Positions 4,665 to 53,348 of a stretch of 64,000 bases of DNA are shown here, piece after piece. How positions within the stretch are numbered: position 1 is the stretch's first letter; each line of letters begins with the position of its first letter. The notes beneath the pieces are model-generated. The model was not told where the DNA came from, searched no databases, and saw nothing but the letters and a program-made list of their open reading frames with translations. Source of the stretch: Eledone cirrhosa (Eukaryota); NCBI GenBank assembly GCA_964016885.1, contig OZ024743.1:13826001-13890000 (forward strand), read 5' to 3'. A program made the translations under genes and the position numbers.

Positions 4665-5624
4665 TAATAAGTGGTAGAAGGTCATGAAATCGCTCCCGTA
4701 AGTTTTTGATTTTTAACATATTTAAATCAATTGTGAAATAACATTTCTTAGTACAAATGTTGCATAAACCACCGAGTCAAACCCCATCAAATTTCGGATC
4801 CATATTATATTGTTATATCGCTCAAATATTCAATTTTGTATTATATATTTTGCATTCAAAAACAGAAAATGGTATAAATGGAAGAAAACACCCTCTGTCT
4901 ACACTATATAGAACAGCCAAATAACAGCAATTTCACCAACACCAGAAACTTGATACACCACCTACCCCATCACACTAAACATCACAGCCAGATAACGGCA
5001 ATTTCACCACCACCACCACCAATCCCAGCATCATAATAATAATTACTATTATTATTGTCTCAAGTTTTTTTTTAAAATGTTTGATCCCAATTTTACGGGA
5101 ATATGTCAACACAATATATATTAACCATACGCGACACACACTCATATATACTACATATCACAAAACTCAGTAACGTCAAAGCCACCGCCGCCACCACCCC
5201 ACCCCATCCATCATTGCTACCACTATCCCATCACCGCCGCCACCACTCCTTCATTGCTACCACCACTATTCCCCTGTTAACTTGAGAGAGAAAGGGGAAG
5301 GTGGCGGTATCACTAGACAAGGGAGAAGCTAGCAAAAGATATAAATAGATTGACTTAGTGACCTGGCCACCGGCCAAACGTCAACATCAACAACTATGGC
5401 ACTGCTAGCTCACCCCTTCCTCACCAACAATATAAAAATCCCCAGCACCACCACCGACATACCCAACAACAATAACAGGCAACTTCAGCAAAAAGTATAT
5501 TATATTATTGTAATGCACTGGGAGATTGCTGGCCTTGTGCCTGGAGTGGAGACAATTATTAATAATTTCATTCTTAAGCCACGCAATGCTCACATTAAGG
5601 AACCACTCATGATAATAAACATTT

Positions 5625-8600
5625 AAAAAAAAAACAACAAAAAGAAAACCCCGTGACCAAGAAATACCGGGATGGCGGCCGGCGGGGAATAGCCGTGTCT
5701 CCTGGGGAGAACGACCCCTCTAGTCTTGGTTGACACTCGTTCTAGAAGTGGTAACACGAAATGATTACCCCTTGGCGGATAAGGATAAAACGCGACAAAA
5801 TAAAGTAAATGTCTAATGATAAAATCTCATACCGGATCGGCCGTCACCCGGGTAAAAAAGGGCCGCGTCCCTCAGAGAGGAAACAGACTGGGGTCGAAAA
5901 ATCAGCTAATGGTTCAAACCTTCCCATCACTTCGGGGCTGGAGACCTCCCATAACCGGAATACTCCTACTGTTGGCCCTCCATGCTCACCACCAAGAAAT
6001 CCAAAGAAAAAGAGAGAAAAATGGTCTAGGGAAGATAATAAAGAAGTCCTTGAGGCTTTCTACACTGCCATGTACTACCCATCAAATACATCGAATACAG
6101 AACAGACATATATCAACTGGAAAAAGAAACATCCCGAAAACAGAGGCTATATTGACAGCAACAAACTAGCCAATATATGACGAAATATTGTAAGAAAAAA
6201 GTTACTAACTGATATAGAAATTGATCAGATCAAGCTATTAGCACAAAGTCAGCGAAAGGAAAATGAAACATGTGTCAGTGAAAACGAGGTAAATTGTAAC
6301 ACTTCGAATCCCAGGAATGGGGCGGAATCACTAGCAACAGAACAAATTAAAGAAAGGATCGAAAAAGTGGAGGGAGTGCATGCTCAAGATGAAACTCCAA
6401 ATGAAAATAATGAGATCGTAAATGATAAAGAAGTGAATGAGAATGAACTTGCCAACTTGAAGGATGAAATTATGATCGAATGGATGTAAATGAAAGAATC
6501 TGACATGGGGCAACGAGACACACTCCCTAAGATCCAGAACTCCAAACAGAACCAAAAGATAATACACAAGACTAACATAATTCTCAAAAACATTATCATC
6601 ACAAACAAACTAAACATTACTGATTTAAATCATCTCTATTATGCATCGGCTAAAGTCACCACTCACTTATGTGGAGTGAAGATGAAAAAACAAAGGAATT
6701 CCCACAAGAAATCTACTTGGCAAGAGAACATCAACCGCCAAATAAACCTTCTCTGATCTGACATAGACATTTTAACAAACTATAAAGTAGGTGAACATGT
6801 TAAACAAACTAAACTTAGAAAATTGAAAAAAAAGTACAGTATAAAATCAACAAGTGACATAGACATGCTGATAGAAATAATCAAACAAAAAGTGTCGGCC
6901 AAAGCTGCTCGTATAAGGCGCTTTGAAAAACGATCTAGATTCTATAAGGATAATAATATGTTCAAAAACAACCAAAGAAACTTCTACAGAAAAATTCCTA
7001 AGTCAACAATAACTGCTAAATCAATACCACCCAAGGAGGAAGTGCAAGAATTCTGGGAAAAGATCTGGGCCGAAGAAAAAGTTCATAACATACATGCCCC
7101 ATGGATAGACAGACAAATGAAAGATACAGCTCACCTTGAGGAACAAATATGGGAAAATATAACAGTTGAACAGTTGCGCTTGGCTCTAAGAAAAACCAGC
7201 ACATGGAAATCCCCAGGAAAAGACAAAATACAAAACTTTTGGATAAATGCCTTCACAGAGTCTCATGAGCTGTTAGCCCAACTTTACAATGTAATAGTTA
7301 AGGAGCCAGAAAAGATACCATCATGGCTAGTTAACGGCATTACATTCCTGCTTCCGATGAATGATGAGACAAACAATCCCAAAAATTACAGACCGATAAC
7401 TTGCTTGACCACAATGTATAAAATTTTAACATCAGTCCTAACTGAATACACATATGACCACCTGATAACAAATGACCTATTCCCCATTGAGTAGAAAGGG
7501 TGTAAACGAGGCTCATATGGCTGTAAGGATCAGCTTCTGGTTAACAAAATGATACTGGAAGATTGTCATAATAGACACACAAATCTATCGATTGCTTGGA
7601 TAGATTATAAAAAAGCATTCGATAGTTTGCCACACAGTTGGATTGAAAAATGTTTAGAGATTTTAAAAATATCCCCCGTTGTCAGGAGGTTTTTGCCATT
7701 CAGTATGAAGACATGGAAAACGACACTCCTTTTGAATAGTGAAACAAAATCACTGGAAGCTGGAGAAGTTAATATTAATTGTGGAATTTTTCAGGGTGAC
7801 TCTTTATCACCGCTTTTATTCTGCATCGCACTTATACCATTAAGTAAAATGCTCAATGAAACAAAACATGGATATAAAGTCTATGACAAAACCATTAATC
7901 ACTTGTTCTACATGGATGACCTGAAACTATTTGCAAAAAATGATGAACAATTGCAAGGGCTATTATCCACTGTGGAGCAGTTCAGTGATGACATTAAAAT
8001 GGAGTTTGGACTAGACAAATGCGCCAAAGCAACGTTCACCAGAGGAAAGCTGCTGAAGAGTTCAGACATTAATCTTGATCGGGGGAACGTGATTAGAGAA
8101 CTTGATCAAGAAAAAGCTTACAAATATCTAGGTGTTTGTGAAGGAGACGGAATCAAGCACTCGACAATGAGGGAAAGGATAAGGAAGGAATGTTACCGCA
8201 GAGTAAGAGCAATCTTAAGAACGGAATTGAATGCAAGGAATAGGATCGATGCCATAAACACGCTTGCCATACCAGTAGTAACCTAGTTACAATGTCATCA
8301 ACTGGTCAAGCACAGAGATCCGTAGGCTCGATACAAAAATTCGAAAATTCTTAACCATGCACAGAATGCTTCACCCTAAGGCAGATACAGATAGAATATA
8401 TCTCCCTAGGAAAGAAGGAGGACGTGGGTTAATCCAGTTAGACATTGCGTTGAAAACTGCAACAATTGGATTATCTACATATCTAAGGGAATCACATGAT
8501 TGGATGATCAAACTCGTTTTGAAACACGAAAGCATCAAAAGATCATATTCCATTACAAAAGATGCACAAAGATACAGTAATGGACTACAAATTTCAGACG

Positions 8601-9620
8601 TCCCATTTACTGCTGAAATGGAAAACACAGAAAAAGCAAACCAGATAAAAGTAACTGCAAAGAAAGAACCGCTACAGAAACTGGCTAAGAAATGGCAAGA
8701 AAAGCCTCTGTATGGAAAATACCCAGAGCGAGCCAACAATCCTGATGTTGACAAAACTTTAACCCACCAGTGGTTGGCATCCTCTGGACTGAAATCGGAG
8801 ACTGAAGGACTGATTATATCAGCACAAGATCAGTGTCTGCCAACAAAAAATTACCATGCCAACATAATAAAAAATGGATGCAGCCCATTATGCCGTGTAT
8901 GCAAAAAACAACCAGAGACCATTGGCCATATAATTTCAATGTGCAGTCCTATAGCTCCAACCGAATACCTAAACAGGCATGACAGAGCTGCACAATACAT
9001 ACATTGGATAATGTGTAAGCATTTTGACCTGCCCCATCAAAAGAATTGGTGGGAGCATCAACCACCTCCCATACTTGAAAAAGATCACATCTCAATCTTG
9101 TTGAACTTTAGCATCCAAACAGACCGAAAAATAGATGCAAATAGACCTGATATAATATTGAAGGACTTCAAAAAGAGGGTATGCCTGCTAATTGATATGT
9201 CTGTTCCAATAGACAAGAATGTATCTATAAAAATATTTGAAAAATTGAGCAAGTATAAGGACCTGGAGATAGAAATTGGAAAAATGTGGAAATTGAGAAC
9301 TAAAACAATACCAGTGGTTGTAGGCGCTCTGGGAATGATACCTAAGGGGTCTAATGATTACTTATCGCAAATATCAGGAAACCCGCGTATAGGAGAAATA
9401 CAAAAGATAGTACTAATGGGAACTGCCCATATACTAAGGAAGATTCTGTCAATATAAGTACATCACAAGTCTAAACACTAAAGATGCATGTGTGAGTATG
9501 TATGTTCTTTCTTGAACATGGCGGACCTTGTTGTCTCTTGAGGTCACTGGTTGTGACTTGGTGATAACTCGTATGAACATAAAGCAACATAAATGCAACT
9601 GTAATAATAATAATAATTAT
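5625..9620 (+). mobile_element. R4/Dong-like retrotransposon, family 1 copy 2 (tandem, decayed)
   Basis: Colinear with copy 1 at ~5160 bp offset, a few percent diverged. Same 3' UTR and a short (TAA)n tail at ~9602. Confidence 0.9.
5809..9457 (+). pseudogene. RT-RLE polyprotein pseudogene
   Basis: Stops at ~6178, ~6487, ~6754 and ~7492 plus a 2-nt deletion at ~8284 relative to copy 1. Same motifs as copy 1. Confidence 0.92.
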
Positions 9621-9927
9621 TATTATTATTATCATCATTATTTTTTATCATTATTATTATTGTTGTTGTGGTTGCTGTTGTTGTTGGTGTTGCTGTTGTT
9701 GTTATTATTTGTGTATAACGTCCATCTATTTTGCATAGCAATCACATTAACTTGTGGAAAAATTACCCTTTTGTACTCGCCAGACATCATTGCAATTGAT
9801 GAGAGGTAAGTGTGACGGCGAAGATGATTTTAAAATTCAGTCTTGTTTTACTACTGGTGTTCCTTTAAACAAGAACATCAACAACAACAACAACAACAAA
9901 AGCATCAGCAATAATGGTCTCTTATAT

Positions 9928-14495: not shown

Positions 14496-14593
14496 GGAAC
14501 CAGTAAGACCCCCATTACCCACTCTACTACCTCAAGTATTGAGTACTTTGGTGCGTTATGGTCCACCTGGTTCCTTACCACATTTCCTTCGTT
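14496..14593 (+). mobile_element. Family A mini-element (tail plus short inverted arm)
   Basis: ATTACCCACTCTACTACCTCAAGTATTGAGTACTTTGGTGCG...CCTTCGTT, shared with five other copies. In (TA)n. Confidence 0.8.
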
Positions 14594-14641: not shown

Positions 14642-15563
<922 letters not shown>

Positions 15564-15564
15564 T

Positions 15565-16300
15565 AGTTATCGTTATAGGTAATCCAGTTGGAGGTAATCC
15601 GGTTAGTGTACTCTACGTCGTGGATAGTTTTTACGTACGGCTTTGTTTGACTCAACAAGATGTTTTCCCAGTTATGCAGCGAGTTTGCAGTAATTTCTAT
15701 GCAGGTTATACTTGGAGTAATAAAAGTTAAAGAAAGAAGAGTAACATGATTGGCTGTATAATAAGGGCTTTATTTAAAGTACTGACAATTGTTTCGTCGA
15801 TCAGGTGTGTCTAGAGTTCGCTAATCGCCTGAGGTTGCATCAATCGATCTCCAATACATTGTTTACAACTTGTCAACACACCAGAGCACGTAGATATGAA
15901 CATAATTCACTCGAGGCAAGACTTATATAGAGGAGTAGCGTAAAACAAAACAATAAACTCAATAATAGAACAGCGTATAATTAAAACAATAACATCAATA
16001 GTAAAACATGTATGGTAAATAGAGAGAGAAGTTACAGATGTAAAAAGTGACAAGTAAGATGTAATGTAGGGTACATTAAAGAATAATAATAATAATAGGA
16101 AAATACAAAGAAATAAACGAAATGAAAGAGTGATATATTGTACTTAGAGTTAGACTTTAGTAGTTCTTAATATAGTGTTCCTTGGTGCTAACATGAGCGG
16201 CAATATTTTAGAAGTAGATAACTTTGTGTGGAGGGTCCGGTAAAATAGAAGACAGTAAAATATAGATTAATTGATGTATACTATTTATAGGTTGACAGGT
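15565..16300 (-). mobile_element. Family J PLE-like terminus (copy 1)
   Basis: Homologous to 16860-17180. Minus strand has GAAACAATTGTC (HHR 3' half) and TACTCC...TTGTTGAGT. Confidence 0.5.
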
Positions 16301-16414: not shown

Positions 16415-16429
16415 ATATATATATATACA

Positions 16430-16838
16430 ATGATATTAGATAAATGGAAACTATATTATAAAACCATATTTATTCTATTATATATATTTCAAGGGTACCA
16501 CATTTTAGATAAAATACACAATTTGTTTAATAAATATTGACATATTCAGATCTTAACCTATCAAGTTTTTCCTGGGTAAACTTAAACCGTTAAGATCTTC
16601 CTGGATATATCAATATTTATAAAATAAATTTTCTCTTTTATCTGATGAGAGCGTACCAAAGTTTTGGTAACCTTGAAATATATGTAATAGAATAAATAAG
16701 GTTTGATAAATATAGTTTCCATGTATTTAATATCATTGAATATTATACCCCAGAAACATATCGAATGCTTCGAATCGGTTATAAACATTTATATTTGTTG
16801 AATTACCAACAAAATAATTAAATAAATATCCCTTTCGC
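16430..16838. mobile_element. Family C fold-back insertion (diverged)
   Basis: 16430-16550 is an imperfect inverted copy of ~16605-16735, followed by a unique tail. In (TA)n. Confidence 0.65.
16634..16694 (+). ncRNA. Type I hammerhead ribozyme (family C)
   Basis: tcttttat CTGATGA ...tacca..tggta.. GAAA t atat GTA atagaata. Confidence 0.65.
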
Positions 16839-16859
16839 TTATATATATATATACGGGGT

Positions 16860-17185
16860 AACAAATAATAGTTATATGCAGTCCACTTAGGTGTAGTCCA
16901 GTTATGGTATTCCGGGTAGTGGATGATATCAACGCTTGGCTTGGTTTGACTCAACAAGGCGTTTTCATAGTGATGTTGCGAGTATGCTGTAATTCCTATG
17001 TTGTAAACACTTGGAGTAATAATAAATCAGGAAAGAAGATTGACATGGTTTGCTATACAAAAAAGGTTTTTAATCTCATTGCTGACAATTGTTTCTCTGA
17101 ACTGGTAGGTCTAGAGATCGCTATTCGCTTGTTTTCACGTTACTCGATCGCCAATACAAAATTATAACCAGTCAGTTCTTCGGAG
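16860..17185 (-). mobile_element. Family J PLE-like terminus (copy 2)
   Basis: Diverged homologue of 15565-15870. Confidence 0.5.
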
Positions 17186-17256: not shown

Positions 17257-17296
17257 CGATATTAATAAATGGAAACTATATTTATAAAACCATATT

Positions 17297-17361
17297 TATT
17301 TCATTATACATATTTCAGGGATACCACATTAAATTATGGTATGCCTTCATCAGATAAAATA
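17297..17361 (-). ncRNA. Type I hammerhead ribozyme (family C)
   Basis: Minus strand: tattttat CTGATGA aggcataccataatttaatgtggtatccct GAAA t atgt ATA atgaaata. Stems I and II pair. Confidence 0.85.
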
Positions 17362-17572
17362 CAATATATAACAGTTTTACAAATAGGTTTGACGTATGGA
17401 AACATGGCATATATATACATATGAAATGTTATATGCATGTATGCGTATGCTCACCTAAATAGAAGTTCTTCCGTATGTGCATATTATATTTATATGCGTA
17501 TTTATTATTTTTATGTACGGATGTGAATTTAAGGCAGAAGTTGCAACATATATATATATATATATATATAGA

Positions 17573-18073: not shown

Positions 18074-18114
18074 CGATATTAAATAAATGGAAATTATATT
18101 TATAAAACCATATT

Positions 18115-18180
18115 TATTTCATTATATATATTTCAGGGATTTCATATTAAAAATATGTTATGCCTTCTTCAGACAAAATA
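18115..18180 (-). ncRNA. Type I hammerhead ribozyme (family C, inverted arm)
   Basis: Reverse complement of 18303-18368 with one change in stem II. Confidence 0.8.
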
Positions 18181-18302
18181 CAATATAAACAGTCTTATAA
18201 ATAGATAGATTCGACATACCTTTCAACATCGACTTGTATTTGAAAAGTTGTCGATGTTGAAAGGTATGTCGAATCTATCTATTTATAAGACTGTTTATAT
18301 TG

Positions 18303-18368
18303 TATTTTGTCTGAAGAAGGCATAACATATTTTTAATATGATATCCCTGAAATATATATAATGAAATA
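18303..18368 (+). ncRNA. Type I hammerhead ribozyme (family C)
   Basis: tattttgt CTGAAGA agg..cct GAAA t atat ATA atgaaata. Palindromic minimal stem III. Confidence 0.8.
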
Positions 18369-20796
18369 AATATGGTTTTATAAATATAATTTCCATTTAT
18401 TTAATATCGTAAATATACTCCAAATACTTGTTGAGTGCTTTTATATCAGTTATAAATATTTACTCGTTGTAACCCAACAATTTAAATATAACTTTCCATA
18501 TATATATATATATATATTTATATAACATATATATGTATAATATAATATATATACATATATATATATATATAATATATATATATATAATATTCTATATAAT
18601 ATGTGTATATATATACAAAACACACACACACGAAACAACCTCCCATATATATATATACACCCATACATGAAAACTTTCAAATGATCGGATATTTACAATA
18701 TTACATGTGCAGACATATGCATCAAATTCAGGAAATTTGTGCAGAGGCCATGCATACAATTATTAACATACGTTATACGTATATACACAAATACATAAAT
18801 ACAGGAATTGAGGAAAACAGTAAAAACATGCTTGGTTAAATAAATGTGGAATATATGTGGTAGCATTCTTTGAATTTTCAACGTTTGAAGTTTTGGAAAC
18901 AGAGAAATATAGGAATATGTAAATATAATCACGACATGCAAGTAACGTAATACAAGACATGAAATAGAAAACTTTCAATGTACGCAGACTATTAAATTAC
19001 AAAGGGCTTGAAAATTGAAATATATAACAATAGAAACATGCGAATATAAATCAGGAGGCGCCGAAGAATGAAATGCTAAAATTTAAAATTGATAGTTTTT
19101 AAAGGGGTAAATCTTGAGCTGCAAAACACAGCATGCAAAATTCACAAATCTTGAAATTAGTAGTAGAATTATGATAGAAGAAAAAGACAGAACGGTAGGA
19201 GTACAAATGATCACACACATCATGACTTCCAAATAATGAATTAGAAATTATAGCGTTAGAGAGGAACAAGGTTGCAAAATTTGAAAGTCCAGAGTTCACG
19301 CTTGTGACAGTATCACACCGATAAAAATGTGTTACAAATACCAACATCTTGCACCGTATGCGTATGGATGCATGGATGGAACTCAGTTCTGGATGTCGAC
19401 AAAGAATGTGTGTGGGAAATGTGTATGGGAACATGATGTATGCTTATAATCTTAGATTTGAAATGGTAATTCTATTGGCTTTAACAAGATACAATTGCTT
19501 TATTGTTTAATAGTTTGTTGGACTGATATGGTGCACTTTGGTCATATTCTCAGTGCTGCAAGTGTTTTAAGTTCTAATTTGCTTAAAAGCTTTCGCACAG
19601 CCGTGTCTCTGCTCTTTCTTTAATGAGCATAAGCGTACCGAGAACTGCTCTACTTCTTGTTCGTGAATGAGAAGACATGTTTGTATGAAATCATTTCAAA
19701 ATCTGCTCCGTTAAGCCCATGTAAGGTATACTTCTGGTACAATGATATAGCGTGCAATATGATGGTGATATAATGTAGTTCTGTAGGGACAGGGTTTTAG
19801 TTTAGTTGAGGTAAACCAAATGGTCTTATCTGTTTTTGACTATTTTTAATTTAATAAGATTCGGTGTTTTGCATGCAGAATTGTGACGGACGTTTGATAT
19901 CTTTTTTTACGTTTAATCGCAATGCAGGGTGTTCTAATTGCAAATATTATGGAGCTAAATATTAAAGTGCAGAGTGGAAATACGCATATGAAAGTCCCAA
20001 TTCTGATATGGAAGTGAGGCAAAACCTATATATTAGTATCTTAGTTTCGCAGAGTTGACATTCTTAAGAGTAAGTTATACATAGATATTATCGTATATCA
20101 TGTACAAATGCAATGTATCGATTAGCAATGCCTTTTTTTGTACTTTTAGGGCGACTCCGGCAAAGATGTTAGGGCGTATATCAATTCATGAGTGGATTCC
20201 TTAGAACTAAAAATCGTAAAGTAGCCTACACATCCGATTGCTTTGAATGTGTCTATATTGTTTTTTCATTGAGTGTTTTGTTGTCCTTTCCACTGATACG
20301 TGATTATTGAATATAATTTGTATTATACTGCCATTAGATGCCATATATTTAATGAAGCAGATGTAGTTTCAATGCTTCAAGTTCCTGCTCCTAGCGAAGT
20401 CATTATTCTAATAACATCCGGCTTTCTACACAAGAGAGTGATATTGTACGTGGATTATTGATGTAGGAAATGTGTAACCAGAGCATAATTAGCTGAGGGA
20501 TTATTGTAACCATCATTCATTCAAGCACTTTATTAGTGTCACTCTTCATAGTTTATACTGAACATATGCTACTATATATGTATATATATATATATATACA
20601 TATATAAATCAGATTTAAATTAAATCTGCCTTCCTAAAAACAACTAATCTCCGACCGATCCTTTAAGACCTTCACAGGAATACTCCCGTGAAAATATAAA
20701 CCCCAAAATATTTGGGATAATTAAATTTGCTAAGGTCGTTATCTTGACACCTTTAATGCATTGTATGGCTTTTCAAATTATTTAGATTTAGATTTC

Positions 20797-21543: not shown

Positions 21544-21614
<71 letters not shown>

Positions 21615-21616
<2 letters not shown>

Positions 21617-21804
21617 AGTAAGTAAGACCCCGACGGCTGAGCTCAAGCCGTTTCGACGGCTAATTCAGTACAGAATTAGCCGTCGAAACGGCTTGAGCTC
21701 AGCCGTCGGGGTCTTACTTAGTCCTATTACCCACTCTACTACCCTAAGTATTGAGTACTTTGGTGCGTTTTGGTCCACCTGGTTCCTTACCACTTTTCCC
21801 TCGC
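21615..21804 (+). mobile_element. Family A fold-back mini-element
   Basis: ~110-bp palindrome centred at ~21669 containing GAAACGGCTTGAGCTCAGCCGTC (HHR stem III + GUC), plus ~80-bp tail. In (TA)n. Confidence 0.85.
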
Positions 21805-21823
21805 TATATATATATATATATAT

Positions 21824-22437: not shown

Positions 22438-23188
22438 TACAAGTTAATATAAATTAATATATGATAAACACCTAAGTGTTTGTATTGTAAAAGACGAAGT
22501 TAGCTAGAATGAAATAAACTAATTCAAATAATTCAAATAAATATAGCTTGCCTGTATCGATGTAAAATAATAAATCAATATACACAAACTCATACTGGTA
22601 AATAGCCGTGGTACCTGGACAAATTTAAATTTCAAAATTCAAACCTTTTCCGCAGATCAATCTGAACTTCAAAATCCAAACAAGTTTCGCAAACGATGGT
22701 ATAAAAAGTGAAATAATCGATCTTCTGTGCTTATCAACAGGTACCCAGAAAAATTAGGTTACTTCACCTCGAAAAAATTTTGAAGGTCTGGTTTACGAGC
22801 ACAAAACCGAGTGCACAAAACGGAGTGCAAAACCTCGTGCGTTTTGTGCTCGTAAACCAGACCTTCAAAATTTTTTCGAGGCAAAATTTTTTCGAGGTGA
22901 AGTAACCACAACATTTTTTCGAGGTGAAGTAACCACTTCGAGATGAAGTACCACGGCTATTTGCCAATATGAGTTTGTGTATATTGATTTATTATTTTAA
23001 ATCGATACAGGCAAGCTATATTTATTTGAATTATTTGAATTAGTTTATTTCATTCTAGCTAACTTCGTGTTTTACAATACAAACACTTAGGTGTTTATCA
23101 TATATTAATTTATATTAACTTATATTTCACGGCTTAGAAATGCTTCTTTCTTTGAGCTAATTAATTGTAAATGACTCTAAATATATTA

Positions 23189-23190
<2 letters not shown>
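22438..23190 (+). mobile_element. Family D fold-back element
   Basis: 22438-22615 is inverted relative to ~22947-23122. Internal palindrome ~22767-22880. Tail CACGGCTTAG...TTTGAGCT. Minus strand 22625-22700 encodes LVWILKFRLICGKGLNFEI*. Confidence 0.75.
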
Positions 23191-24207: not shown

Positions 24208-24266
<59 letters not shown>

Positions 24267-24276
24267 ATATAGAAAT

Positions 24277-24327
24277 GGCTTCTACAGGACTAGAACTGTT
24301 TCATTCGGAGGAAATCATCAGAAAGCC
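24277..24327 (-). ncRNA. Type I hammerhead ribozyme (family B), complete
   Basis: Minus strand: ggcttt CTGATGA tttcctccgaat GAAA cag ttctagtc ct GTA gaagcc. Stems I and III pair; stem II short. Confidence 0.85.
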
Positions 24328-24406
24328 GACTGTCAATTAAAATTTCTGGTATTTATACATTTTGCCATGGTAAGGGAAGGGTAGTAGTTGTATATATATG
24401 TGTATT

Positions 24407-24920: not shown

Positions 24921-25121
24921 CACGGAGGAAGTGTGGTAAGGAACCAGATGGACCTTAACGCACCAAAGTACTCAATACTTAGGTTAGTAGAGTGGGTAAT
25001 AGGAACGAGTGGGACCCCGACGGCTGAGCTCAAGCCGTTTCAACGGCTAATTCTGGACTAGAATTAGTCCAGAATTAGCCGTCAAAACGGCTTGAGCTCA
25101 GCCATCGGGGTCCCACTCGTT

Positions 25122-25123
<2 letters not shown>
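24921..25123 (-). mobile_element. Family A fold-back mini-element
   Basis: Reverse-oriented copy, palindrome 25002-25123, tail 24921-25000. Confidence 0.85.
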
Positions 25124-26388: not shown

Positions 26389-26646
26389 GTGATGTGTCTA
26401 TTTTATATGTATATTTGTACATATATATATATATATATATATATGTGTGGATAAATCTACCAAAATATACGGTTGTGTCCAATCCGTATGAAGAACGCAA
26501 TGTAGTCCAAATATGAAAAAAGATGCATTCAAAAATTTTCGATGAAAATCAAAGGAAAACAGAGTCAATAAAAACAGTCAATAAAAACAGAGTTAATAAA
26601 AAACAATAAATAAAAACAAAGAACAAGTTCCTTATACTAAAAAATT

Positions 26647-26782
26647 CATCATTTTACGATCGTTTCTAGGATATATATGTGTGTTGGTATGTATATCATA
26701 TAGATCTATGTAAAAATATTACAAACTATCAGAGGAAATATACATACCTTCACATATATATATGCTGTCTTCAGAAATAATG
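26647..26782 (-). ncRNA. Type I hammerhead ribozyme, long stem II (Naiad pLTR, inverted arm)
   Basis: Near-exact reverse complement of 28616-28749. Confidence 0.75.
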
Positions 26783-27094
26783 AGATTTGTTTATTGAAAA
26801 AAACAAACAAAGATTTAATATAATAGTCTGTTTGGGAACAGGTTTTGGATTGACTAATAGAAAAGTAGTAAGATGTCAAGTTGATAGAATAGTAGTAGTA
26901 GAAATTTAATTAAGGGTAGAGGAATGCAGACTTATGTTTTGAATGGAAAGAATACTTTGAATGAAAATAATACTTTGGGGATGAAAAGAGGTCAAGCCGG
27001 TGAAGGATACACGAAAATTTGATGTTATTAAATAATAATGTTAATGTTAAAACCGAAGAAGAGTAAAATTTAATACTAACTCTCTTAGTAAACA

Positions 27095-27907
27095 TCCTGA
27101 TACATCGTAGAAATATAACATCGAAAACGTAATAGACGAGTTACTTGGTATAATGCTCCATATAATCTACAAATTAAAGATAATATCCCTAAAACATTTT
27201 TACTATCCTTGAGAAAAAATTCCCGCCAAACCATAAATACCATCAAATTTTAAATAGATCAATAGTCAAATTTTTCTACTCCACTACCAAAAATATACAA
27301 CATATAAGTGCGTACAATGCATATAAATGTAAAAAAAAACATGAATATACCACCAACACATCAAACCAACCATAATACTAAAATAAACTGCAACAAACTA
27401 CCATGTCCTTCACATATAACAAGTCGAGTAAATTCCACACCAAATTTGACTAACTCCCCTGATATAATATTCACGAATGGTTGCAACTGTAGAAACAAAA
27501 GAAATTGCCCATTAAAGGGAAATTGTCTTATTAATAACGTAGTATATACATGTAAAATTAGCACTAAGGACTCAGCTTATTCATATATAGGAGCTACGTC
27601 TAACCAATTTAAAGTAAGATTTAATACCCACAAACATAGTTTTAAACATGCCGCATTAACTAATACAATATCCTTGGCTGAAACAATTAATAATTATTGA
27701 AAAAAGAATATCGATTACAACCTGACCTGGAGTGTGCTCAAAAGGGACACCCCTTATCAAAATAACAGATATGAGTGTAGATTATGCTCCCAGGAACTCT
27801 TTGAAATAAAGAAATCTAAGGATATGCTATTAAATAAGCGACAAGAATTAATTATATGTTGCAATCATAGAATTAGAAGAACTTTCAAATATTATAAACC
27901 TAATTAA
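27095..27907 (+). pseudogene. Naiad PLE GIY-YIG endonuclease remnant
   Basis: RNRRVTWYN, CNCRNKRNCPLKGNCL, YSYIGATSNQFKVRFNTH, CRLC, LLNKRQEL..C.H. Contains frameshifts. Confidence 0.88.
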
Positions 27908-28615
27908 TATACACCTTACACTTATATTTTACATATTATTATAAATAGTTTTTTTAAATTTAGTTAACCTATAATTAGTACTTTACTACAGAGAACTTCA
28001 TAATTTTATTTCCCTCTTACAGCTCTCTTTTACTAAAATTAATACCTAAAAGTATACATATAAATTAATTTAATTTCCTGTTATGAATCTAGATTCCTTG
28101 TAGTCTATATTAGATTGGTATATCTCACTACTACACTTATCGCCAAATGTTATTTTCCTTCGTTTTTAACAACAATCTTTAATAACATCTAATTCTTATT
28201 TATCACATCCATATGAATTAATATAAATTTATCCCTATAAGTATACATATCAATTAATTTAATTTCTTGTTATAGATCTAAATTCGCTGTGTTTTAAATA
28301 AGATTGGTATTTCTCACTAATACCTTTACCCTAAAATTTTACTCTCCTTCGGTTTTAACATTAACATTATCCTTTAATAACATCAAATTTTCGTGTACCC
28401 TTGACCTCTTTTCATCCCCAAAGTATTCTTTTCATTCAAAGTATTCTTTCCATTCAAAACATAAGTCTGCATTCCTCTACCCCTTAATTAAATTTCTACT
28501 ACTACTATTCTATCAACTTGACCTCTTACTACTTTTCTATTGGTCAATTCAAAACCTGTTCCCAAACAGACCTATTATATTAAATCTTTGTTGTTTTTTT
28601 TCAATAAACAAATCT

Positions 28616-28749
28616 CATTATTTCTGAAGACAGCATATATATGTGAAGGTATGTATATTTCCTCTGATAGTTTGTAATATTTTTACATAGATCTACATGA
28701 TATACATACCAACACACATATATATCCTAGAAACGATCGTAAAATGATG
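28616..28749 (+). ncRNA. Type I hammerhead ribozyme, long stem II (Naiad pLTR)
   Basis: cattattt CTGAAGA [~100-nt hairpin] GAAA c gatc GTA aaatgatg. Palindromic stem III ACGATCGT. Confidence 0.75.
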
Positions 28750-28801
28750 AATTTTTTAATATAAGGAACTTGTTCTTTGTTTTTATTCATTGTTTTTATT
28801 A

Positions 28802-28868
<67 letters not shown>

Positions 28869-29187: not shown

Positions 29188-29237
29188 GAACTGCAGACAC
29201 CAATGTTTCTGGGTATCATCCTTCATCAGTACAGCTC
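29188..29237 (-). ncRNA. Type I hammerhead ribozyme (family F)
   Basis: Minus strand: gagctgta CTGATGA aggatgataccca GAAA ca ttgg t GTC tgcagttc. 8-bp stem I. Confidence 0.8.
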
Positions 29238-31420: not shown

Positions 31421-31609
31421 GGAACAAGTAAGACCCCGACGGCTGAGCTCAAGCCGTTTCGACGGCTAATTCTGTACAGAATTAGCTGTCGAAACGGCTT
31501 GAGCTCAGCCGTCGGGGTCTTACTTGTTCCTATTACCCACTCTACTACCCTAAGTATTGAGTACTTTGGTGCGTTATGGTCCACCTGGTTCCTTACCACA
31601 TTTCCTTCG

Positions 31610-31611
<2 letters not shown>
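31421..31611 (+). mobile_element. Family A fold-back mini-element
   Basis: Palindrome 31421-31530 centred on TCTGTACAGA, plus tail. In (TA)n. Confidence 0.85.
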
Positions 31612-34272: not shown

Positions 34273-34375
34273 AACGAAGGAAGTGTGGTAATGAACCAGG
34301 TGGACCATAAGGCACTAGTGGGTTAGTTCATATCTAATGGCCGGAGCTCAGCCGTCGTGGTCCTGGCTCTTTTCC
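34273..34375 (-). mobile_element. Family A mini-element, internally deleted or diverged
   Basis: AACGAAGGAAGTGTGGTAA.GAACCAGGTGGACCATAA and GAGCTCAGCCGTCG. Confidence 0.7.
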
Positions 34376-36850: not shown

Positions 36851-37163
36851 GTGGCACTCTCGGGTTCCGAAAGTTTGTAACGAAGTATTTTAAATATTCA
36901 TTAATTATTGCTAAGTGATGAACCTCGGCGCTCTGGATTCTCACCTGGGTACTCACAGGATCATGAGACAAGAGTGGTGTTCCTGTGATTGCGCAGGTGG
37001 AATGACAGAGTAACACATATCACCAGTAGTCATAATAAATTAATATATATCTATATGTATATATATATACTAGGTGAATAATTTAGGTATACCAGTTTCT
37101 TAACAAATGCGAAGAAGCTCAATATATTAACCCCCCATGTTCAAGTACAGAGCCAAGTACTTT

Positions 37164-37215
<52 letters not shown>

Positions 37216-38711: not shown

Positions 38712-39096
<385 letters not shown>

Positions 39097-39928: not shown

Positions 39929-42364
39929 ATGGAAAAACAATACTTGGGAACCTCTTTAAAGAATATACCAGTACATTCTAAGGATGACTTCTTACTCCTT
40001 ATGATACAGAAAACTAACCAATTTATCAGAAGAGTTAGATGGAGGGCCTACCACTTCGATAAAAAATCTAAATATGCAGATAGGAAATATATGTATGATT
40101 TCAATACTTACAAGAATCCACCACACAACTCTCTACTTGAAGACTTTGAGAAAGACCTTTTTAATTTAATTAAACACCTCAAATTTAAGAAGTATAAATC
40201 TGTCTTTCAAAAGGACCTTGATTCTACCCTATTGGACCTAAAAAAGTCTAAAAAAATCCATGTCCACTCGGACAAAACTGGAAACTTGTATCACATGAAT
40301 ATTGAAGATTATAATGAGTTCATATATAAAGAACTCAGGAAAAATTATAAAAAGTCTAATAATGCGTCACTCACCAACATCAACAACAAAACACACAACA
40401 TAGTAAAAAAACTAAACATTGAAGATAGAACTGAACCTTTGGCATTGAAAAGACCACACTTCAACCCGAAGGATCATAAATCAAACTTTAACTCAAATCC
40501 TTCTATAAGACTTATTTGTCCCTCCAAATCTGATATTGGAATAATTAGCAAAAAAATTTTTGATAGAGTCATCCCACAAATAAGAAAACATGTTAATTTA
40601 CTACTCTGGGAAAACACTTCCCAGGTAATTAACTGGTTTAAAAATATTAGATGTAAATCTTCTGCTTCATTTCTACAATTTGATATAGATAATTACTACT
40701 CTTCTATATCACCTATACTCCTGAACAAAGCTTTGATATTTGCTAAAAATAGATCTAACTTAACTTTGGATGACATTAATATTATTACACATGCTAGACT
40801 AACACTTATTGAATTTCAGAATGAATACTGGACCAGAAACACATATAGTAATCTATTTGATATTACTATGGGTTCAAGCGATTCTGCCCAAATTACTGAT
40901 CTTGTGGGCCTCTTTCTTCTTTTCAACATAAATGCTTCCTTTCCCCACCTTAAAGGTGGTTTATATCGTGATGACTGTCTTCTTCTTTCCAGCAACCTTA
41001 GCCTCTCAGAAATAGAAAAAAACGAAAAGCTTATTAGACCTTTCCTTAAAGACTATTATAGTCTTCATATTACTTTTGAAAACACAAGTAAAGTAGTTAA
41101 TTTCCTAGATATAACTTTAGACTTAGCTACGGATATCTACCAACCTTACCATAAACCCAACCAAAACTTACACTACATACACTCACAATCTAATCACCCT
41201 AAATCTATCCTTAAAAACCTTGCATATAATATATCACTTAGAATTTCTAACCTTTCGTCTAACCAAGATGTATTTGATAAAAATGCGACCTTCTATAACG
41301 AAGCTCTAGATAGAAGTGGCCACAAAAATAGATTAGAATATATACCTTCTACTAAGAATACTATAAACATACAACCTAATATTACCAACAAACACCACAT
41401 GAAAAGTACACACCTAAATGCCACCCACACTATACCCCAAAATACCAACAACTCCTCTAATATAAAGTACAGTAACTCTCAAAAAACTACTCATCATACA
41501 ACTCTAATAAATGTTAATAATAAAACTCCTAATAAACAACATAAAACACCTAAATCAATAAATCTAACTAAAAATGTGAGTGGTGAGGTCATTAACATTA
41601 ATCCTCCTAGTAAACATCACGATACAACCTATAAAAATAATAAACAACATAGAAACCGTAATAGACGAGTTACTTGGTATAATGTTCCATTTAATTTACA
41701 AATTAAGGATAATATTGCTAAAAAAATTTTTTATATCCTAGAGAAAAACTTCCCGTCAAACCACAAATACCATCAAATCTTAAATAGGTCAACAGTTAAA
41801 TTCTCATACTCAACAACCAAAAACATAAAACAAAATATAAGTACCTATAATGCATATAAATGTAAAAATACCATAAGTATACCACCAATACATCAAACTA
41901 ACCATAATATCTCCTCAAATACAGAATTAACGAAAGGTTGTAACTGTAGAAACAAAGCAAACTGCCCATTAAAAGGAAATTGTCTTGTTAACAACATAGT
42001 TTATAAATGTAAAGTTAAAACTAAAGATTCTATTTGCTCATATATAGGAGCTACTTCTAACAATTTTAAGGTAAGGTTTAATACCCACAAACATAGTTTT
42101 AAAAATGCCGCACTGGCTAATACAACATCTCTAGCAGAAAAAATTAATAGTTATAGAAATAAGAATATAGAATATGATATGACCTGGAGTGTGCTCAAAA
42201 GAGCCACCCCTTATCAAAATAATAGAAATGAATGTAGATTATGTTCCCAAGAACTATTTAAAATAATGAAATCTAAGGATATCCTATTAAATAAGCGACA
42301 GGAATTAATTATATCGTGTAATCATAAACTGAGAAAAACATTTAAATATTATAAACCTAATTAA
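39929..42364 (+). CDS. PLE (Naiad-type) reverse transcriptase with C-terminal GIY-YIG endonuclease, ~811 aa
   Basis: Uninterrupted ORF from ATG 39929. SLKNIP, DKT, KDHK, FDIDNYY, TMG, YRDD, VNFLDI, SNHP, CNCRNKANCPLKGNC, IVY..YIG..FKVRF..H, CRLC..E, LLNKRQEL..C.H. Confidence 0.93.
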   Translation: MEKQYLGTSLKNIPVHSKDDFLLLMIQKTNQFIRRVRWRAYHFDKKSKYADRKYMYDFNTYKNPPHNSLLEDFEKDLFNLIKHLKFKKYKSVFQKDLDSTLLDLKKSKKIHVHSDKTGNLYHMNIEDYNEFIYKELRKNYKKSNNASLTNINNKTHNIVKKLNIEDRTEPLALKRPHFNPKDHKSNFNSNPSIRLICPSKSDIGIISKKIFDRVIPQIRKHVNLLLWENTSQVINWFKNIRCKSSASFLQFDIDNYYSSISPILLNKALIFAKNRSNLTLDDINIITHARLTLIEFQNEYWTRNTYSNLFDITMGSSDSAQITDLVGLFLLFNINASFPHLKGGLYRDDCLLLSSNLSLSEIEKNEKLIRPFLKDYYSLHITFENTSKVVNFLDITLDLATDIYQPYHKPNQNLHYIHSQSNHPKSILKNLAYNISLRISNLSSNQDVFDKNATFYNEALDRSGHKNRLEYIPSTKNTINIQPNITNKHHMKSTHLNATHTIPQNTNNSSNIKYSNSQKTTHHTTLINVNNKTPNKQHKTPKSINLTKNVSGEVININPPSKHHDTTYKNNKQHRNRNRRVTWYNVPFNLQIKDNIAKKIFYILEKNFPSNHKYHQILNRSTVKFSYSTTKNIKQNISTYNAYKCKNTISIPPIHQTNHNISSNTELTKGCNCRNKANCPLKGNCLVNNIVYKCKVKTKDSICSYIGATSNNFKVRFNTHKHSFKNAALANTTSLAEKINSYRNKNIEYDMTWSVLKRATPYQNNRNECRLCSQELFKIMKSKDILLNKRQELIISCNHKLRKTFKYYKPN

Positions 42365-45056: not shown

Positions 45057-45275
45057 AACTTTTTTTGTTTAATATAAGGAACTGTTTCATTGTTTTATTC
45101 ATTATTTTTTTAATATTTTATCTTGACTCTGTATTCCGTTTATCTTTCACCGAAAGTGATTTTTGAATGCATCTCTTCTTTCCATGATATCCGGATTACA
45201 TTGAGTTCTTCATACGGATTGGACACTAGCGTAAACTCTTGGTAGATTTATCTACATATATATATATATATATAT

Positions 45276-48780: not shown

Positions 48781-49181
48781 TGATTATATTTAATTGGCGG
48801 TAGGAATAAGACAACGGTTTAAGCATAATAGTGTTGCATATGAAAATATATATGATACGCCTTTATACAATACAATAAATATATAGGTAACCTAGCAAGA
48901 AAAGAAAAAAAAATTTTTTCTCAACGAAACGAATATTATGCTTGAACGCTGACTTACAGCTACAACAAATTATATATATATATATATATATAGTTATGTA
49001 ATAAACAACATAAGGCATTATTTCATTTACCAGTGGTTTCTTTGAGAAAAAAAGGTTTTTCTTCTCTTGCTAGGTTACCTATATATTTCTTGTATAAAAA
49101 GCGTTTCATATATATTTTCATATGCAACGCTATTATGCTTAAACCGTTGTCTTAGTCCTACAGCCAATTAAATATAATCAT
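48781..49181. repeat. Inverted repeat pair (48781-48925 / 49040-49181) with an internal (TA)n and family I fragment
   Basis: TGATTATATTTAATTGGC... / ...GCCAATTAAATATAATCA. Confidence 0.75.
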
Positions 49182-49202: not shown

Positions 49203-49599
49203 TAGTTATGTAATAAACAACATAAGGCATTATTTCATTTACCAGTGGTTTCTTAAAAGCAAACAAATTTTGCTTTCAATCATCAGAATGAAAAAATCCA
49301 GGTGTTTTATTGACATTGGATTTTAAAAACAAAAATATAATCTATATGAAAGTGAGGCTGGAAAAGGAAGAAGAAAAGGAAAAATAAACACACATGCACA
49401 CACGCACACACACATACACACAATTACATACACACACATATATACATACACACATATATATACGCACACATACACACACAAACACATATATATATATATA
49501 CATACACATGCATATACACATACATGCACACATATATATCAACATATCCATACATACACATACACACAAATACACAAACACGCACACACACACACATGC

Positions 49600-49631: not shown

Positions 49632-49634
<3 letters not shown>

Positions 49635-49895
49635 GAAGTTCTATTTAAATTGTTGGGATACAACAGTAAATATTTTTATAACTGATATAAAGCACTCAAC
49701 AAATCATTGGAGTAAAAATACGATATATTAACAAATGGAAACTATATTTATAAAACCATATTTATTTCATTATACATATTTCAATGACACCAAGTTAAAT
49801 TATGGTGGGCTTTCATCAGATAAAATATAATATAGAGCAGTTTTATAAATAAATATTGACATACCCTTAAAGAATGCGACCATTTCTGTTGGAAG
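49632..49895 (-). mobile_element. Family C pLTR plus tail
   Basis: Homologous to 13951-14234 and 18250-18498. Confidence 0.8.
49763..49827 (-). ncRNA. Type I hammerhead ribozyme (family C)
   Basis: Minus strand: tattttat CTGATGA aagcccacca..tggtgtcatt GAAA t atgt ATA atgaaata. Confidence 0.75.
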
Positions 49896-51494: not shown

Positions 51495-53030
51495 CATTTT
51501 AAATTTATATTTAAACGTTGAGTTCAATCTATGTCTGCAGCAGCTGAATAAATTGTTCCTTAGGTTCAGGGAATTTTTGGGCTTTAATATTAAGAATATT
51601 TCCTCTATACAAAGATCACAATTTTCTGAAGAGGAGTTAAACGGAGTAGCTTATGAAATAATATTCCAAAGCAACGAATATTTAACGTTCTTTAATTTGA
51701 GGTCCCATAATAAGCTAGATAGAGAAGTTGAAGATTTTTTGTTTAGATGTGTAAAAGAAATTTTATGATTATTGAAACGGGATTTAAAATCTGTGGATTT
51801 TATCCTACATAATTAAATGAATTTAAATTAGTTTTTACATTACAATTATATACTATATTTTTAGCTAAACAATTGTTATTTAACGGACAGTTAGATTTAT
51901 TTCTACAGTTAAATTTATCAAATTGGATATTACTTGGGTTATTAGTGGTATTTTGGTTATGTTTTAAATATTTATTATTAATTCTATTAATATTTTGCGC
52001 TAAATCTTTGGTGGATGGATAAGTTAATTTTATAGTATGTCTATTAAAAATTGAGTAATATCTATGTGTTCTAGGTAAGCATTTGTCAAGAGCTTTAAAG
52101 AATAGTTTAGCAATAGGGGTTTTAATATTTAATGAGAAAGGAGGAGTAAACCATAATATATTCCTAGTTCTATTTCTTTTTTTCGTTTTCCGAAATATTG
52201 TAAGGTTTTCTATTATAGTTGTTAACATTTTTAAAATTGTTAAAATTGTTAAGATTATGGTTAGTTATTATATTATTATTATCAATGTATTTAATTTTAT
52301 TTCTATATCCAGCTCTAGCTAACGCTTCGTTGTAATAATGTGCTTTATCATCAAATATATTCTTATTAGCTGCAATTCTAGAAATGCGTTGCTGTTCAGA
52401 ATTCACTATAGTATTTTTAACGGATCTGGGGTGATTAGAGTTAAAATTAACGTAGTTTAAGTTCTCGTTTAGTTTGTGAAATGGATAATGAAGACATGTG
52501 TTAAGGTTTAATGTTACATCTAGAAAGTTAACTATTTTATGGTTATTCTCTATTTCTACTTTTAGATTAAGGTAATTAAAGAATTGTATAATTTCTTTTC
52601 TTTTCCTATTTAATTCACAGTTATTATTTTCGATATGTAAAAGCATGTCGTCACGATATAAACCTCCGGTCACCTCAGGTATTTTCCTATGTAGAGAATT
52701 ATTTATAAAGAGGCCCACAAGATCCGTTACCTTTGCGGAATCGGGTGATCCCATAGTTATATTAAAGTTATTGTTTCTATCTGCTCTAGTCCAGAGTTGG
52801 TTATTAAATTCTATTAATGTTTTCCGTGACGATAATATAATGTGCATTTCATTACTAGTTAAGTCTGTATGTTTAAGTGCCTAAGTTAGTGCTTTATTAA
52901 GTAGATTGGGAGTGATGGATAAGTAATAATTAGCAATATCCAATTGAATAAACTTATTATTATAGTTATATTTAATTTCCTTAGACCAATCGATAACTTC
53001 ACTAATAAGTTATCTACAGTGATTTAATGC
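51495..53030 (-). pseudogene. 5'-truncated, frameshifted Naiad-type PLE RT + GIY-YIG
   Basis: ITMGSPDSA, GGLYRDD, VNFLDVTL, SNHP, WFTPPFS, NCRNKSNCPLNNNC, YVG, C-terminal CCRH. Confidence 0.88.
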
Positions 53031-53348
53031 TTATTTTCATTGATCATTTGCTCCAGGAACTTGTTGAGTGCTCTAAATCAGCTATAAACATTTATACCCT
53101 TTTCTAATTATTTATTTATTATTTGTCGTATTCCCAACTTTTTATTTTCATATATATATATAACATTTATGTATTTTCTTATATATATATGTGTGTGTGT
53201 ATGTATGTTTATGTATGTGATTATATATATATATATTGTTTTTAAAGTTAAACAAGGTTCATATGAATACATCTAAGAATGAGTTTTACACACATACATA
53301 TGTGTGTGTATGTATTTGTATGTATGTGTTTGTGTATATGTATGTATA

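What the first reader, a model, noticed from the sequence alone, without database searches (positions are those of the whole stretch)
21615..21804. Family A: 100-200 bp palindromic mini-elements that fold back inside a hammerhead ribozyme
Seen: six copies (14496, 21615, 24921, 31421, 34273, 38884), all in (TA)n. The longer copies keep only the 3' half of an HHR (stem II, GAAACGGCT-loop-AGCCGTC, then the stem I 3' strand). The CUGANGA strand is replaced by an inverted copy. The symmetry axis is the stem II loop at 21669, ~25062 and 31475, and the stem III palindrome at ~38910. Arms of one copy share copy-specific substitutions, so each palindrome formed at its own insertion. Inference: nascent cDNA snaps back on the ribozyme hairpin and self-primes, so ribozyme structure determines PLE 5' inversion.
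Basis: partly seen in the sequence, partly recalled or inferred. Interest (0 to 1): 0.75.

Follow-up and report, generated by a model that had tools for sequence, protein, structure and literature searches.

The report
Miniature Penelope retroelement with mirrored end
These short mirror-image repeats are miniature copies of a known kind of jumping gene, and their shapes suggest the mirror half is made by copying the RNA from both sides of the landing site rather than by folding back on a ribozyme.

Summary
The six copies, their (TA)n targets and the four axes are real, but only four copies are palindromes. Family A is a high-copy, non-coding derivative of Hydra-clade Penelope-like elements (PLEs): an inverted 5' arm, a direct arm and an 80-nt tail at one end only. 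That layout, and self-priming as its cause, are in print. A hammerhead 3' half is likely (54 of 20,000 shuffles), but no CUGANGA parent appeared in the reads, and 'stem II' is largely made by the palindrome itself. Snap-back on the ribozyme fits poorly. Two copies, 13 of 15 listed read joints and a coding PLE copy have inverted arms with no template in the direct arm. Six of 8 inverted arms in neighbouring families cross a whole hammerhead. All inverted arms start at one fixed site just before a tail hairpin shared by at least eight families here and by 2 of 6 published Hydra consensuses. Best reading: twin priming from the two PLE RT start sites, with the two cDNAs joined at self-complementary spots or at the template's 5' end. 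This scan noted similar mini-elements in a shark.

The parts
21545..21614 (.). (TA)n target, left of the focal copy
   Evidence: 70-nt run
21615..21669 (-). inverted 5' arm, 55 nt; starts at the fixed proximal site (mirror of 21724)
21666..21673 (.). symmetry axis 21669/21670; the centre differs from the natural upstream sequence seen in reads
21670..21724 (+). direct arm, 55 nt
21685..21707 (+). probable hammerhead 3' half: GAAA, 5-bp stem III with palindromic loop, GUC; predicted cut before 21708; no CUGANGA, no stem I partner
   Evidence: position matches Hydra-clade HHRs
21724..21727 (+). proximal end (inferred second RT start site), followed by TAT microhomology to the target
   Evidence: 3,643 and 3,349 reads turn into (TA)n here
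21725..21804 (+). 80-nt tail present at one end only
21733..21756 (+). conserved tail hairpin RCUC-3 bp-loop-3 bp-2 nt bulge-GAGY
21805..21823 (.). (TA)n target, right of the focal copy; distal end
14496..14592 (+). family A copy, not palindromic: 17-nt inverted arm ending at the predicted GUC cut plus one extra C, joined straight to the tail
24921..25123 (-). family A palindromic copy, axis 25062.5, asymmetric 4-nt centre; keeps the natural upstream TAGTC
31421..31610 (+). family A palindromic copy, axis 31475.5; reference for the reads
34274..34375 (-). family A copy of the second subfamily, not palindromic: inverted arm into stem III, filler, then an internally deleted tail
38884..39017 (+). 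family A palindromic copy, axis 38910.5 at the centre of the self-complementary stem III loop
39929..42364 (+). Hydra-clade PLE ORF (RT with C-terminal GIY-YIG; RWR, DKT, CxCx5C, CxxC, CxH); the kind of helper that could mobilise family A, not shown to be its helper
26445..28804 (+). truncated copy of a coding PLE: tail on the short inverted arm (26445-27071), long direct arm ending at the proximal site
45126..45209 (+). tail hairpin of the coding PLE family, with a 65-nt insert in the loop

Best explanation
Family A is a non-coding, very high-copy derivative of the 3' end of a Hydra-clade Penelope-like retroelement, mobilised in trans. Its RNA of about 135 nt holds the relic 3' half of a type I hammerhead and a tail with a conserved hairpin. 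The PLE enzyme cuts both strands of a (TA)n run, and each target end primes reverse transcription: one at the distal end of the tail, the other at a fixed site 6-12 nt before the hairpin (twin priming). The two same-sense cDNAs run toward the RNA 5' end. If both pass a self-complementary spot, or both reach the 5' end, they anneal or are joined and filled in, giving a palindrome with a tail on one side. If the distal cDNA stops at the occupied proximal site, the result is an inverted arm joined straight to the tail. Shown: the anatomy, the fixed ends, the non-overlapping inversions and the shared hairpin. Inferred: trans-mobilisation, two priming events, cDNA annealing and the hairpin's role.
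For: All 6 copies start their inverted arm at the same nucleotide, and 3,643 and 3,349 reads plus 99 contigs turn into (TA)n there. In families B-F and the coding PLE the inverted arms also stop just before the same hairpin. The hairpin descriptor gives 15 hits against 0.38 +/- 0.61 in 60 resampled windows. With pairing not required, 14 of 17 hits within 100 nt of a TA run pair 3/3, against 1 of 12 elsewhere and 5.7% background. It recurs in published Hydra consensuses from a coral and a sea cucumber. Two of 6 copies and 13 of 15 listed read joints have an inverted arm joined to the tail with no direct template. A coding PLE copy carries the tail on its short arm. At 38884 a two-cDNA duplex scores -9.8 kcal/mol and the hairpin needed for that centre +1.7. 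In vitro a PLE protein cuts and extends both target strands and starts RT at two sites that bracket the tail (PMC11167929).
Against: No experiment. Only 15 of 67 joint rows were visible, and most RAD reads stop at an AATT site at 31480, so the joint sample is biased. Non-overlapping copies could be palindromes that later lost an arm. Family A shares only the hairpin motif with the coding PLE in the window; no other similarity was found, and that PLE shows no hammerhead. The tail is 80 nt, against 30-40 bp in print. The shared centre of 21615 and 31421 is not templated by the natural upstream sequence and needs a palindromic master or untemplated bases. What fixes the template's 5' end is unexplained.
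Confidence: 0.65

Rival explanations
1. One reading: one cDNA snaps back on hammerhead stem II or III and self-primes; the endonuclease or target microhomology then trims the second arm at the proximal site.
For: Junctions cluster at 31465-31483, where stem II would lie. One axis lies in the stem III loop. The X11/X12 loose-end consensus before 31483 could pair with the strand before GAAA, with one mismatch and one bulge (read by eye). A cDNA through stem III folds at -4.8 to -5.9 kcal/mol. Self-priming was proposed for PLE palindromes (PMC3846280).
Against: That stem III fold would keep an extra A in the loop; copy 38884 lacks it. No CUGANGA in 7 of 7 upstream consensus rows. It cannot make 14496, 34273, the 13 read joints, or the PLE copy with the tail on its short arm. 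In families B-D, 6 of 8 inverted arms cross a whole hammerhead, one stops in the CUGAUGA core and one 2 nt into stem II; the two B axes lie 59 and 69.5 nt upstream of the core.
Confidence: 0.12
2. The palindrome formed a few times in master copies and is copied as a unit: RT reads through tail, direct arm and inverted arm into the master's (TA)n flank. Non-palindromic copies arise when RT jumps over the RNA hairpin, or by later deletion.
For: 21615 and 31421 share an axis and a centre not found in the natural upstream sequence. Five of 7 arm-shared alleles are common subfamily alleles. A fixed left end follows by inheritance.
Against: Listed read joints carry the natural upstream letters (G, GA, GAC, GACT) past the axis, so they do not descend from that centre. 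Their right breakpoints lie at 31521-31572; none of the 13 lies further into the direct arm. It does not explain why seven unrelated families end at the same distance from the hairpin.
Confidence: 0.18
3. A miniature inverted-repeat or foldback DNA transposon, or two independent insertions head to head in one TA run.
For: Long inverted repeats and TA targets are typical of such elements (own knowledge).
Against: The repeat covers only one part and the tail lies outside it. Axes vary. Arms abut with no TA spacer and match each other better than other copies: 94% against 75-77% for the coding PLE. The same anatomy occurs on an RT-coding element.
Confidence: 0.05

Closest known systems
Hydra clade of Penelope-like elements (Craig et al. 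2021, PMC8557442)
   Same: (TA)n target; 5'-truncated inverted copy next to the direct copy; tail at one end; hammerhead shortly before the 3' end; an ORF with the clade's motifs lies in the window; the tail hairpin is visible in Hydra-2_Amil and Hydra-2_Ajap.
   Different: Family A is non-coding, 97-203 bp, keeps only a hammerhead 3' half and has an 80-nt tail. The paper does not mention a tail hairpin (0 hits in main text and supplement).
Adineta vaga Penelope insertions with inverted pLTR, junction palindromes and tail (Arkhipova et al. 2013, PMC3846280)
   Same: Head-to-head inverted repeats with palindromes at the junction; tail on one arm; self-priming proposed; pLTRs act in trans.
   Different: Those are long, low-copy and TSD-flanked. 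The passages seen give no link to ribozyme stems and no twin-priming model ('twin' 0 hits).
PAc (Poseidon of Anolis) in vitro (Frangieh et al. 2024, PMC11167929)
   Same: Both target strands are cut and extended; two RT start sites bracket the tail; the hammerhead is dispensable and uncleaved RNA is the main template.
   Different: A different clade, with an AC-rich stem-loop. The paper does not use the two starts to explain inverted insertions (its only 'inverted' hit is a reagent).
Non-LTR retrozymes (PMC7229834; bioRxiv 10.64898/2026.07.22.740005)
   Same: Short non-coding PLE-related repeats with type I hammerheads.
   Different: Retrozymes are head-to-tail tandems with a complete hammerhead per unit; family A is dispersed, inverted and lacks the CUGANGA strand.
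LINE-1 twin priming (Ostertag and Kazazian; recalled, not read here)
   Same: Inverted 5' segment joined to a direct 3' segment with little overlap.
   Different: In L1 the second primer anneals at variable internal sites; here the second start is fixed next to an RNA hairpin, and full palindromes are common.

Membership tests
Hydra-clade PLE derivative | insertion into (TA)n | tested here: met
   6 of 6 copies (the run at 14496 is interrupted)
Hydra-clade PLE derivative | inverted 5'-truncated copy adjacent to the direct copy | tested here: met
   6 of 6 have an inverted arm, 4 of 6 overlap the direct arm
Hydra-clade PLE derivative | tail at one end only | tested here: met
   80 nt, longer than the 30-40 bp in print
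Hydra-clade PLE derivative | hammerhead near the 3' end | tested here: inconclusive
   3' half present 25 nt before the tail hairpin (42-57 nt in families B and D); 5' half not recovered
Hydra-clade PLE derivative | shared 3' cis element with a coding Hydra element | tested here: met
   hairpin at 45126 in the tail of the coding family and in 2 of 6 published consensuses; motif only, no longer homology
Hydra-clade PLE derivative | mobilisation in trans by a PLE RT/GIY-YIG protein | not testable with these tools
   needs a biochemical or cell assay
Autonomous Hydra PLE | ORF with RT and C-terminal GIY-YIG, RWK, DKT, CxCx5C | tested here: not met
   family A has no ORF; the ORF at 39929-42364 has these marks
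Type I hammerhead ribozyme | CUGANGA core strand | tested here: not met
   absent from all six copies and from 7 of 7 upstream loose-end consensus rows (19 of 570 rows shown, 30 letters each at most)
Type I hammerhead ribozyme | GAAA-stem III-UH | tested here: met
   5-bp stem; 54 of 20,000 shuffles
Type I hammerhead ribozyme | stem II independent of the inversion | tested here: inconclusive
   5' strand supplied by the inverted arm; the natural upstream gives a 4-bp hairpin, and one consensus could extend it
Type I hammerhead ribozyme | stem I partner upstream of the core | tested here: not met
   no such strand in the loose-end consensuses
Type I hammerhead ribozyme | Rfam hammerhead model match | tested here: inconclusive
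   no match for A, but none either for the complete motifs of families C and D, so the test is insensitive
Type I hammerhead ribozyme | self-cleavage | not testable with these tools
   14496's arm ends at the predicted cut plus one C; a single case, weak
Non-LTR retrozyme | head-to-tail tandem units, each with a complete hammerhead | tested here: not met
   no tandem in the window; no tail-to-head joint among the 15 listed
MITE / foldback DNA transposon | terminal inverted repeats at both ends | tested here: not met
   the repeat ends 80 nt before the distal end
MITE / foldback DNA transposon | target-site duplication | tested here: inconclusive
   cannot be read inside (TA)n

The most novel reading that the evidence does not exclude
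Hydra-clade PLEs carry a clade-wide RNA hairpin in the tail (RCUC, 3 bp, 2-nt bulge, GAGY) that positions two RT start sites. A dimeric enzyme primes from both cut target strands, and the long-known inverted 5' copies are the joined product of two same-sense cDNAs. Any short RNA with this tail becomes a mobile mini-element, and the hammerhead can be lost. Once a master has a palindromic centre, each round rebuilds the left arm from the right.
Probability: 0.45. Interest if true: 0.65.

Novelty: new member of a known kind. Interest (0 to 1): 0.45.

Why it matters
How PLEs form tandem and inverted insertions is named as an open problem in PMC8557442. Family A and its neighbours are natural minimal templates of 100-200 nt. 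They point to a defined cis element (the tail hairpin) and make a sharp prediction (two fixed RT starts, one per target strand) that the existing in vitro assay can test. For annotation, such repeats look like MITEs or microRNA hairpins (Rfam sub-threshold miRNA hits) but are retroelement products.

Tried and rejected
No whole genome is held for this window, so the genome-wide BLAST and histogram could not be run; the read overlay was the substitute.

A 21-base motif scan of metagenome contigs gave one hit, L001, whose flanks are unrelated GC-rich sequence: a chance match. The same scan of viral contigs gave none, and a search of viral contigs with the PLE protein found no confirmed relative.

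Rfam found no hammerhead anywhere: none among the 150 of 163 window matches shown, none for family A, none for the control families C and D. Its miRNA matches are below gathering score and reflect hairpins or microsatellites.

No RNA holder was listed, so expression is untested. The pile of read ends at 31480 is taken as a library enzyme site (AATT), not biology. Two joints (31440 and 31445 to 31527) are taken as mapping artefacts of the partly palindromic reference. The one long loose end from organism B (depth 2) shows no hammerhead core and was not used.

A type II hammerhead reading (core after stem I) was checked by eye and rejected: no CUGANGA follows the downstream hairpin. The second half was flooded by TA hits; rows for copies 21615, 31421 and 38884 were cut, and I used the nine rows that remained (14496 partly).

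Full report
**Observation.** BLAST with four copies as queries finds six family A copies in the window and no more. They measure 97, 190, 203, 190, 102 and 134 bp and all lie in TA-rich runs. The other two are not. In 14496 a 17-nt inverted arm plus one C joins the tail directly; in 34273 the inverted arm runs into stem III and is followed by filler and a deleted tail. In all six the inverted arm begins at the same nucleotide, the mirror of an internal site 80 nt before the distal end.

**Copy number and ends in reads.** No genome is held, so I laid four public runs on window:31440-31610 at 85% likeness. 18,947 contigs of X1 and 24,329 and 24,989 reads of X11 and X12 (same species label) were laid; X5 (another organism) gave 2. 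The family is therefore very abundant, though these are not copy numbers. 3,643 and 3,349 reads and 99 contigs turn into (TA)n just after 31533, which confirms the fixed proximal end beyond the window. A second subfamily does the same after 31519. About 72% of RAD molecules end at an AATT at 31480 (6,910 of 9,655; 7,021 of 9,622). I read this as the library enzyme, and it means the view upstream is biased to variants without that site.

**Is there a hammerhead?** GAAA followed by a 5-bp stem and UC arises in 54 of 20,000 shuffles of the arm. The predicted cut lies 25 nt before the tail hairpin, against 42-57 nt in neighbouring families with complete motifs, and Hydra-clade hammerheads also lie near the 3' end. 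A hammerhead 3' half is thus likely. The 5' half was not found. No CUGANGA occurs in the six copies or in any of the 7 loose-end consensus rows upstream of 31477 and 31483 (19 of 570 rows shown, at most 30 letters each). Those rows end in TTTAGTC or TTAGTTCGGATC. They have agreement 0.47-0.71 in the host runs and differ from run to run further out, so family-conserved sequence seems to stop there. One consensus (X11, X12) could pair with the strand before GAAA with a mismatch and a bulge; I count that as inconclusive. Rfam finds no hammerhead in A, but none in the complete motifs of families C and D either.

**Arm-shared alleles.** Seven alleles are shared by both arms of a copy (1 in 21615, 0 in 31421, 2 in 38884, 4 in 24921). 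Five are among the 40 variant rows shown from reads. They are subfamily alleles. They show that arms were rebuilt or homogenised at least three times, not that each palindrome formed at its own insertion.

**Context.** The window is full of elements with the same build. [quoted passage not shown] Pfam did not match it; 89 unnamed relatives were found; no tree was built. A descriptor search lists 12 complete hammerhead-like motifs, 9 of them in families B, C and D.

**A shared tail hairpin.** The tails of unrelated families share RCUC, three base pairs, a loop, a 2-nt bulge and GAGY. The descriptor gives 15 hits against 0.38 +/- 0.61 (maximum 2) in 60 resampled windows. I drew it up by eye from families A-F, so only the hits at 14847 and 53050 were new. 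A less circular test asked for the sequence alone: 14 of 17 hits within 100 nt of a TA run pair at all three inner positions, against 1 of 12 elsewhere and 5.7% background. The 14 fall in eight families, with inner pairs TAC/GTA, CAA/TTG, TGC/GTA, TGT/ATA, AGA/TCT, TAA/TTA and CAG/TTG. Homology of the inverted arms stops 2-11 nt before the hairpin including TA microhomology, or 6-12 nt without it (read). The coding family has the motif at 45126 with a 65-nt insert. As an outside check I read the 3' ends of the six Hydra consensuses in the supplement of PMC8557442 by eye. Hydra-2_Amil and Hydra-2_Ajap match fully; Hydra-1_Crog matches with changes in the bulge and outer strand; Hydra-1_Amil keeps only the 3' word; Hydra-1_Obim and Hydra-1_Ajap end before a tail.

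**Mechanism.** Snap-back needs the template of the inverted arm to lie in the first cDNA. That fails for 14496 and 34273. It fails for 13 of the 15 joints listed from reads (67 in all), where an arm ending at 31465-31483 joins positions 31521-31572, often with the natural upstream letters G, GA, GAC or GACT between; the other 2 I take as mapping artefacts. It fails for the coding copy 26445-28804, whose tail sits on the 0.6-kb inverted arm while the 1.7-kb direct arm ends at the proximal site. At 38884, snap-back in the stem III register is stable (-4.8 to -5.9 kcal/mol) but would keep an extra A that the copy lacks. The hairpin needed for the observed centre scores +1.7, while two cDNAs annealing there score -9.8. 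In families B-D, 6 of 8 inverted arms cross a whole hammerhead (13951, 16428 with an internal deletion, 17257, 18074, 24264, 49205). One folds in the CUGAUGA core (45277, axis 45331) and one stops 2 nt into stem II (48993). The two B axes lie 59 and 69.5 nt upstream of the core. So ribozyme stems are not the general fold-back point. A purified PLE protein cuts and extends both target strands, starts RT at two sites bracketing the tail, is predicted to be a dimer and does not need hammerhead cleavage (PMC11167929). Twin priming at those two sites explains the fixed outer end, the one-sided tail, both palindromic and non-overlapping copies, and arm-shared alleles. The clustering of family A junctions is then the 5' limit of its template. 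Against this: the joint list is partial and biased, later deletion can mimic non-overlap, the shared centre of 21615 and 31421 needs a palindromic master or untemplated bases, and nothing was tested at the bench.

**Known and new.** Inverted 5'-truncated copies, junction palindromes, a one-sided tail and self-priming as a proposal are in PMC3846280 (passages) and PMC8557442 (passages, section 11, supplement parts 1, 2, 52, 53). PMC11167929: parts 1-2 of 4 and passages. bioRxiv 10.64898/2026.07.22.740005: part 1 of 5 and passages; its supplements could not be seen. PMC7229834 and PMC3681739: passages. L1 twin priming is recalled, not read. I found no paper applying twin priming to PLEs or describing the tail hairpin in eight full-text searches; these cover open-licence papers only, so Repbase entries and subscription papers may hold it.

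**Verdict.** A real feature and a new non-coding member of a known class. The value lies in the conserved tail hairpin and the testable twin-priming model. Interest 0.45.

Noticed in passing
window:13951-14232, 16428-16839, 17257-17386, 18074-18497, 49632-49895: Family B: same arm-and-tail build with complete type I hammerheads (2-bp stem III, TA-rich loop); 18074 carries one in each arm.
   Followed up: partly
window:45277-45453 and 24264-24340: Family C: palindrome whose axis falls in the CUGAUGA core; the sibling at 24321 (-) has the complete hammerhead.
   Followed up: partly
window:54055-54303, 49205-49388, 48993-49042: Family D: complete hammerhead with an 11-bp stem II; its tail resembles the published Hydra-2_Ajap tail (by eye).
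   Followed up: partly
window:17789-18044: Family E: 194-bp palindrome centred on TTAATTAA with the tail hairpin but no hammerhead found.
   Followed up: partly
window:12620-13889 and 22440-23190: Family F: inverted tandem of two 480-bp units plus a short direct arm with tail; no hammerhead found; the second copy has a nested palindrome at 22757-22907.
   Followed up: partly
window:33918-34251 (-), core at 34102: Complete hammerhead-like motif with an unusually long (46-nt) stem II region, directly beside family A copy 34273.
   Followed up: no
window:28867-29720: Another palindrome-plus-repeat element with hammerhead-like motifs at 29229 and 29661 (-).
   Followed up: no
window:45572-46760: 1-kb palindrome with a large asymmetric centre and extra repeats, in GA/TA microsatellite; no short-loop tail hairpin.
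   Followed up: no
window:78-4479 and 5228-9641: 4.4-kb direct duplication (96%) of a non-LTR retrotransposon with RVT_1; the C-terminus looks like a restriction-like endonuclease (recalled motif).
   Followed up: no
window:55490-59749 (-): Partial tandem of three copies of the 3' part of a related non-LTR retrotransposon (RVT_1, weak zf-RVT).
   Followed up: no
window:42311-43346: The coding PLE ends in degenerate ~150-bp tandem repeats of its ORF end and shows no hammerhead, unlike published Hydra families.
   Followed up: partly
window:52173-52880 (-): Fragment of a second Hydra-like RT.
   Followed up: no
window:21678-21707: The word AGCCGTC occurs both before GAAA and at the end of stem III, so the middle strand can pair with either: two exclusive folds.
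   Followed up: no
window:38921-38945 and 38983-39006: The sequence around the proximal end resembles a stretch late in the tail (GGTC...TGGTTCC...TACC), an internal direct repeat.
   Followed up: no
window:14751-14938, 15374-15561, 15569-15858, 16854-17158, 37070-37168, 52960-53149: Further solo tails or tail-bearing fragments with the hairpin motif, some with long loops.
   Followed up: partly
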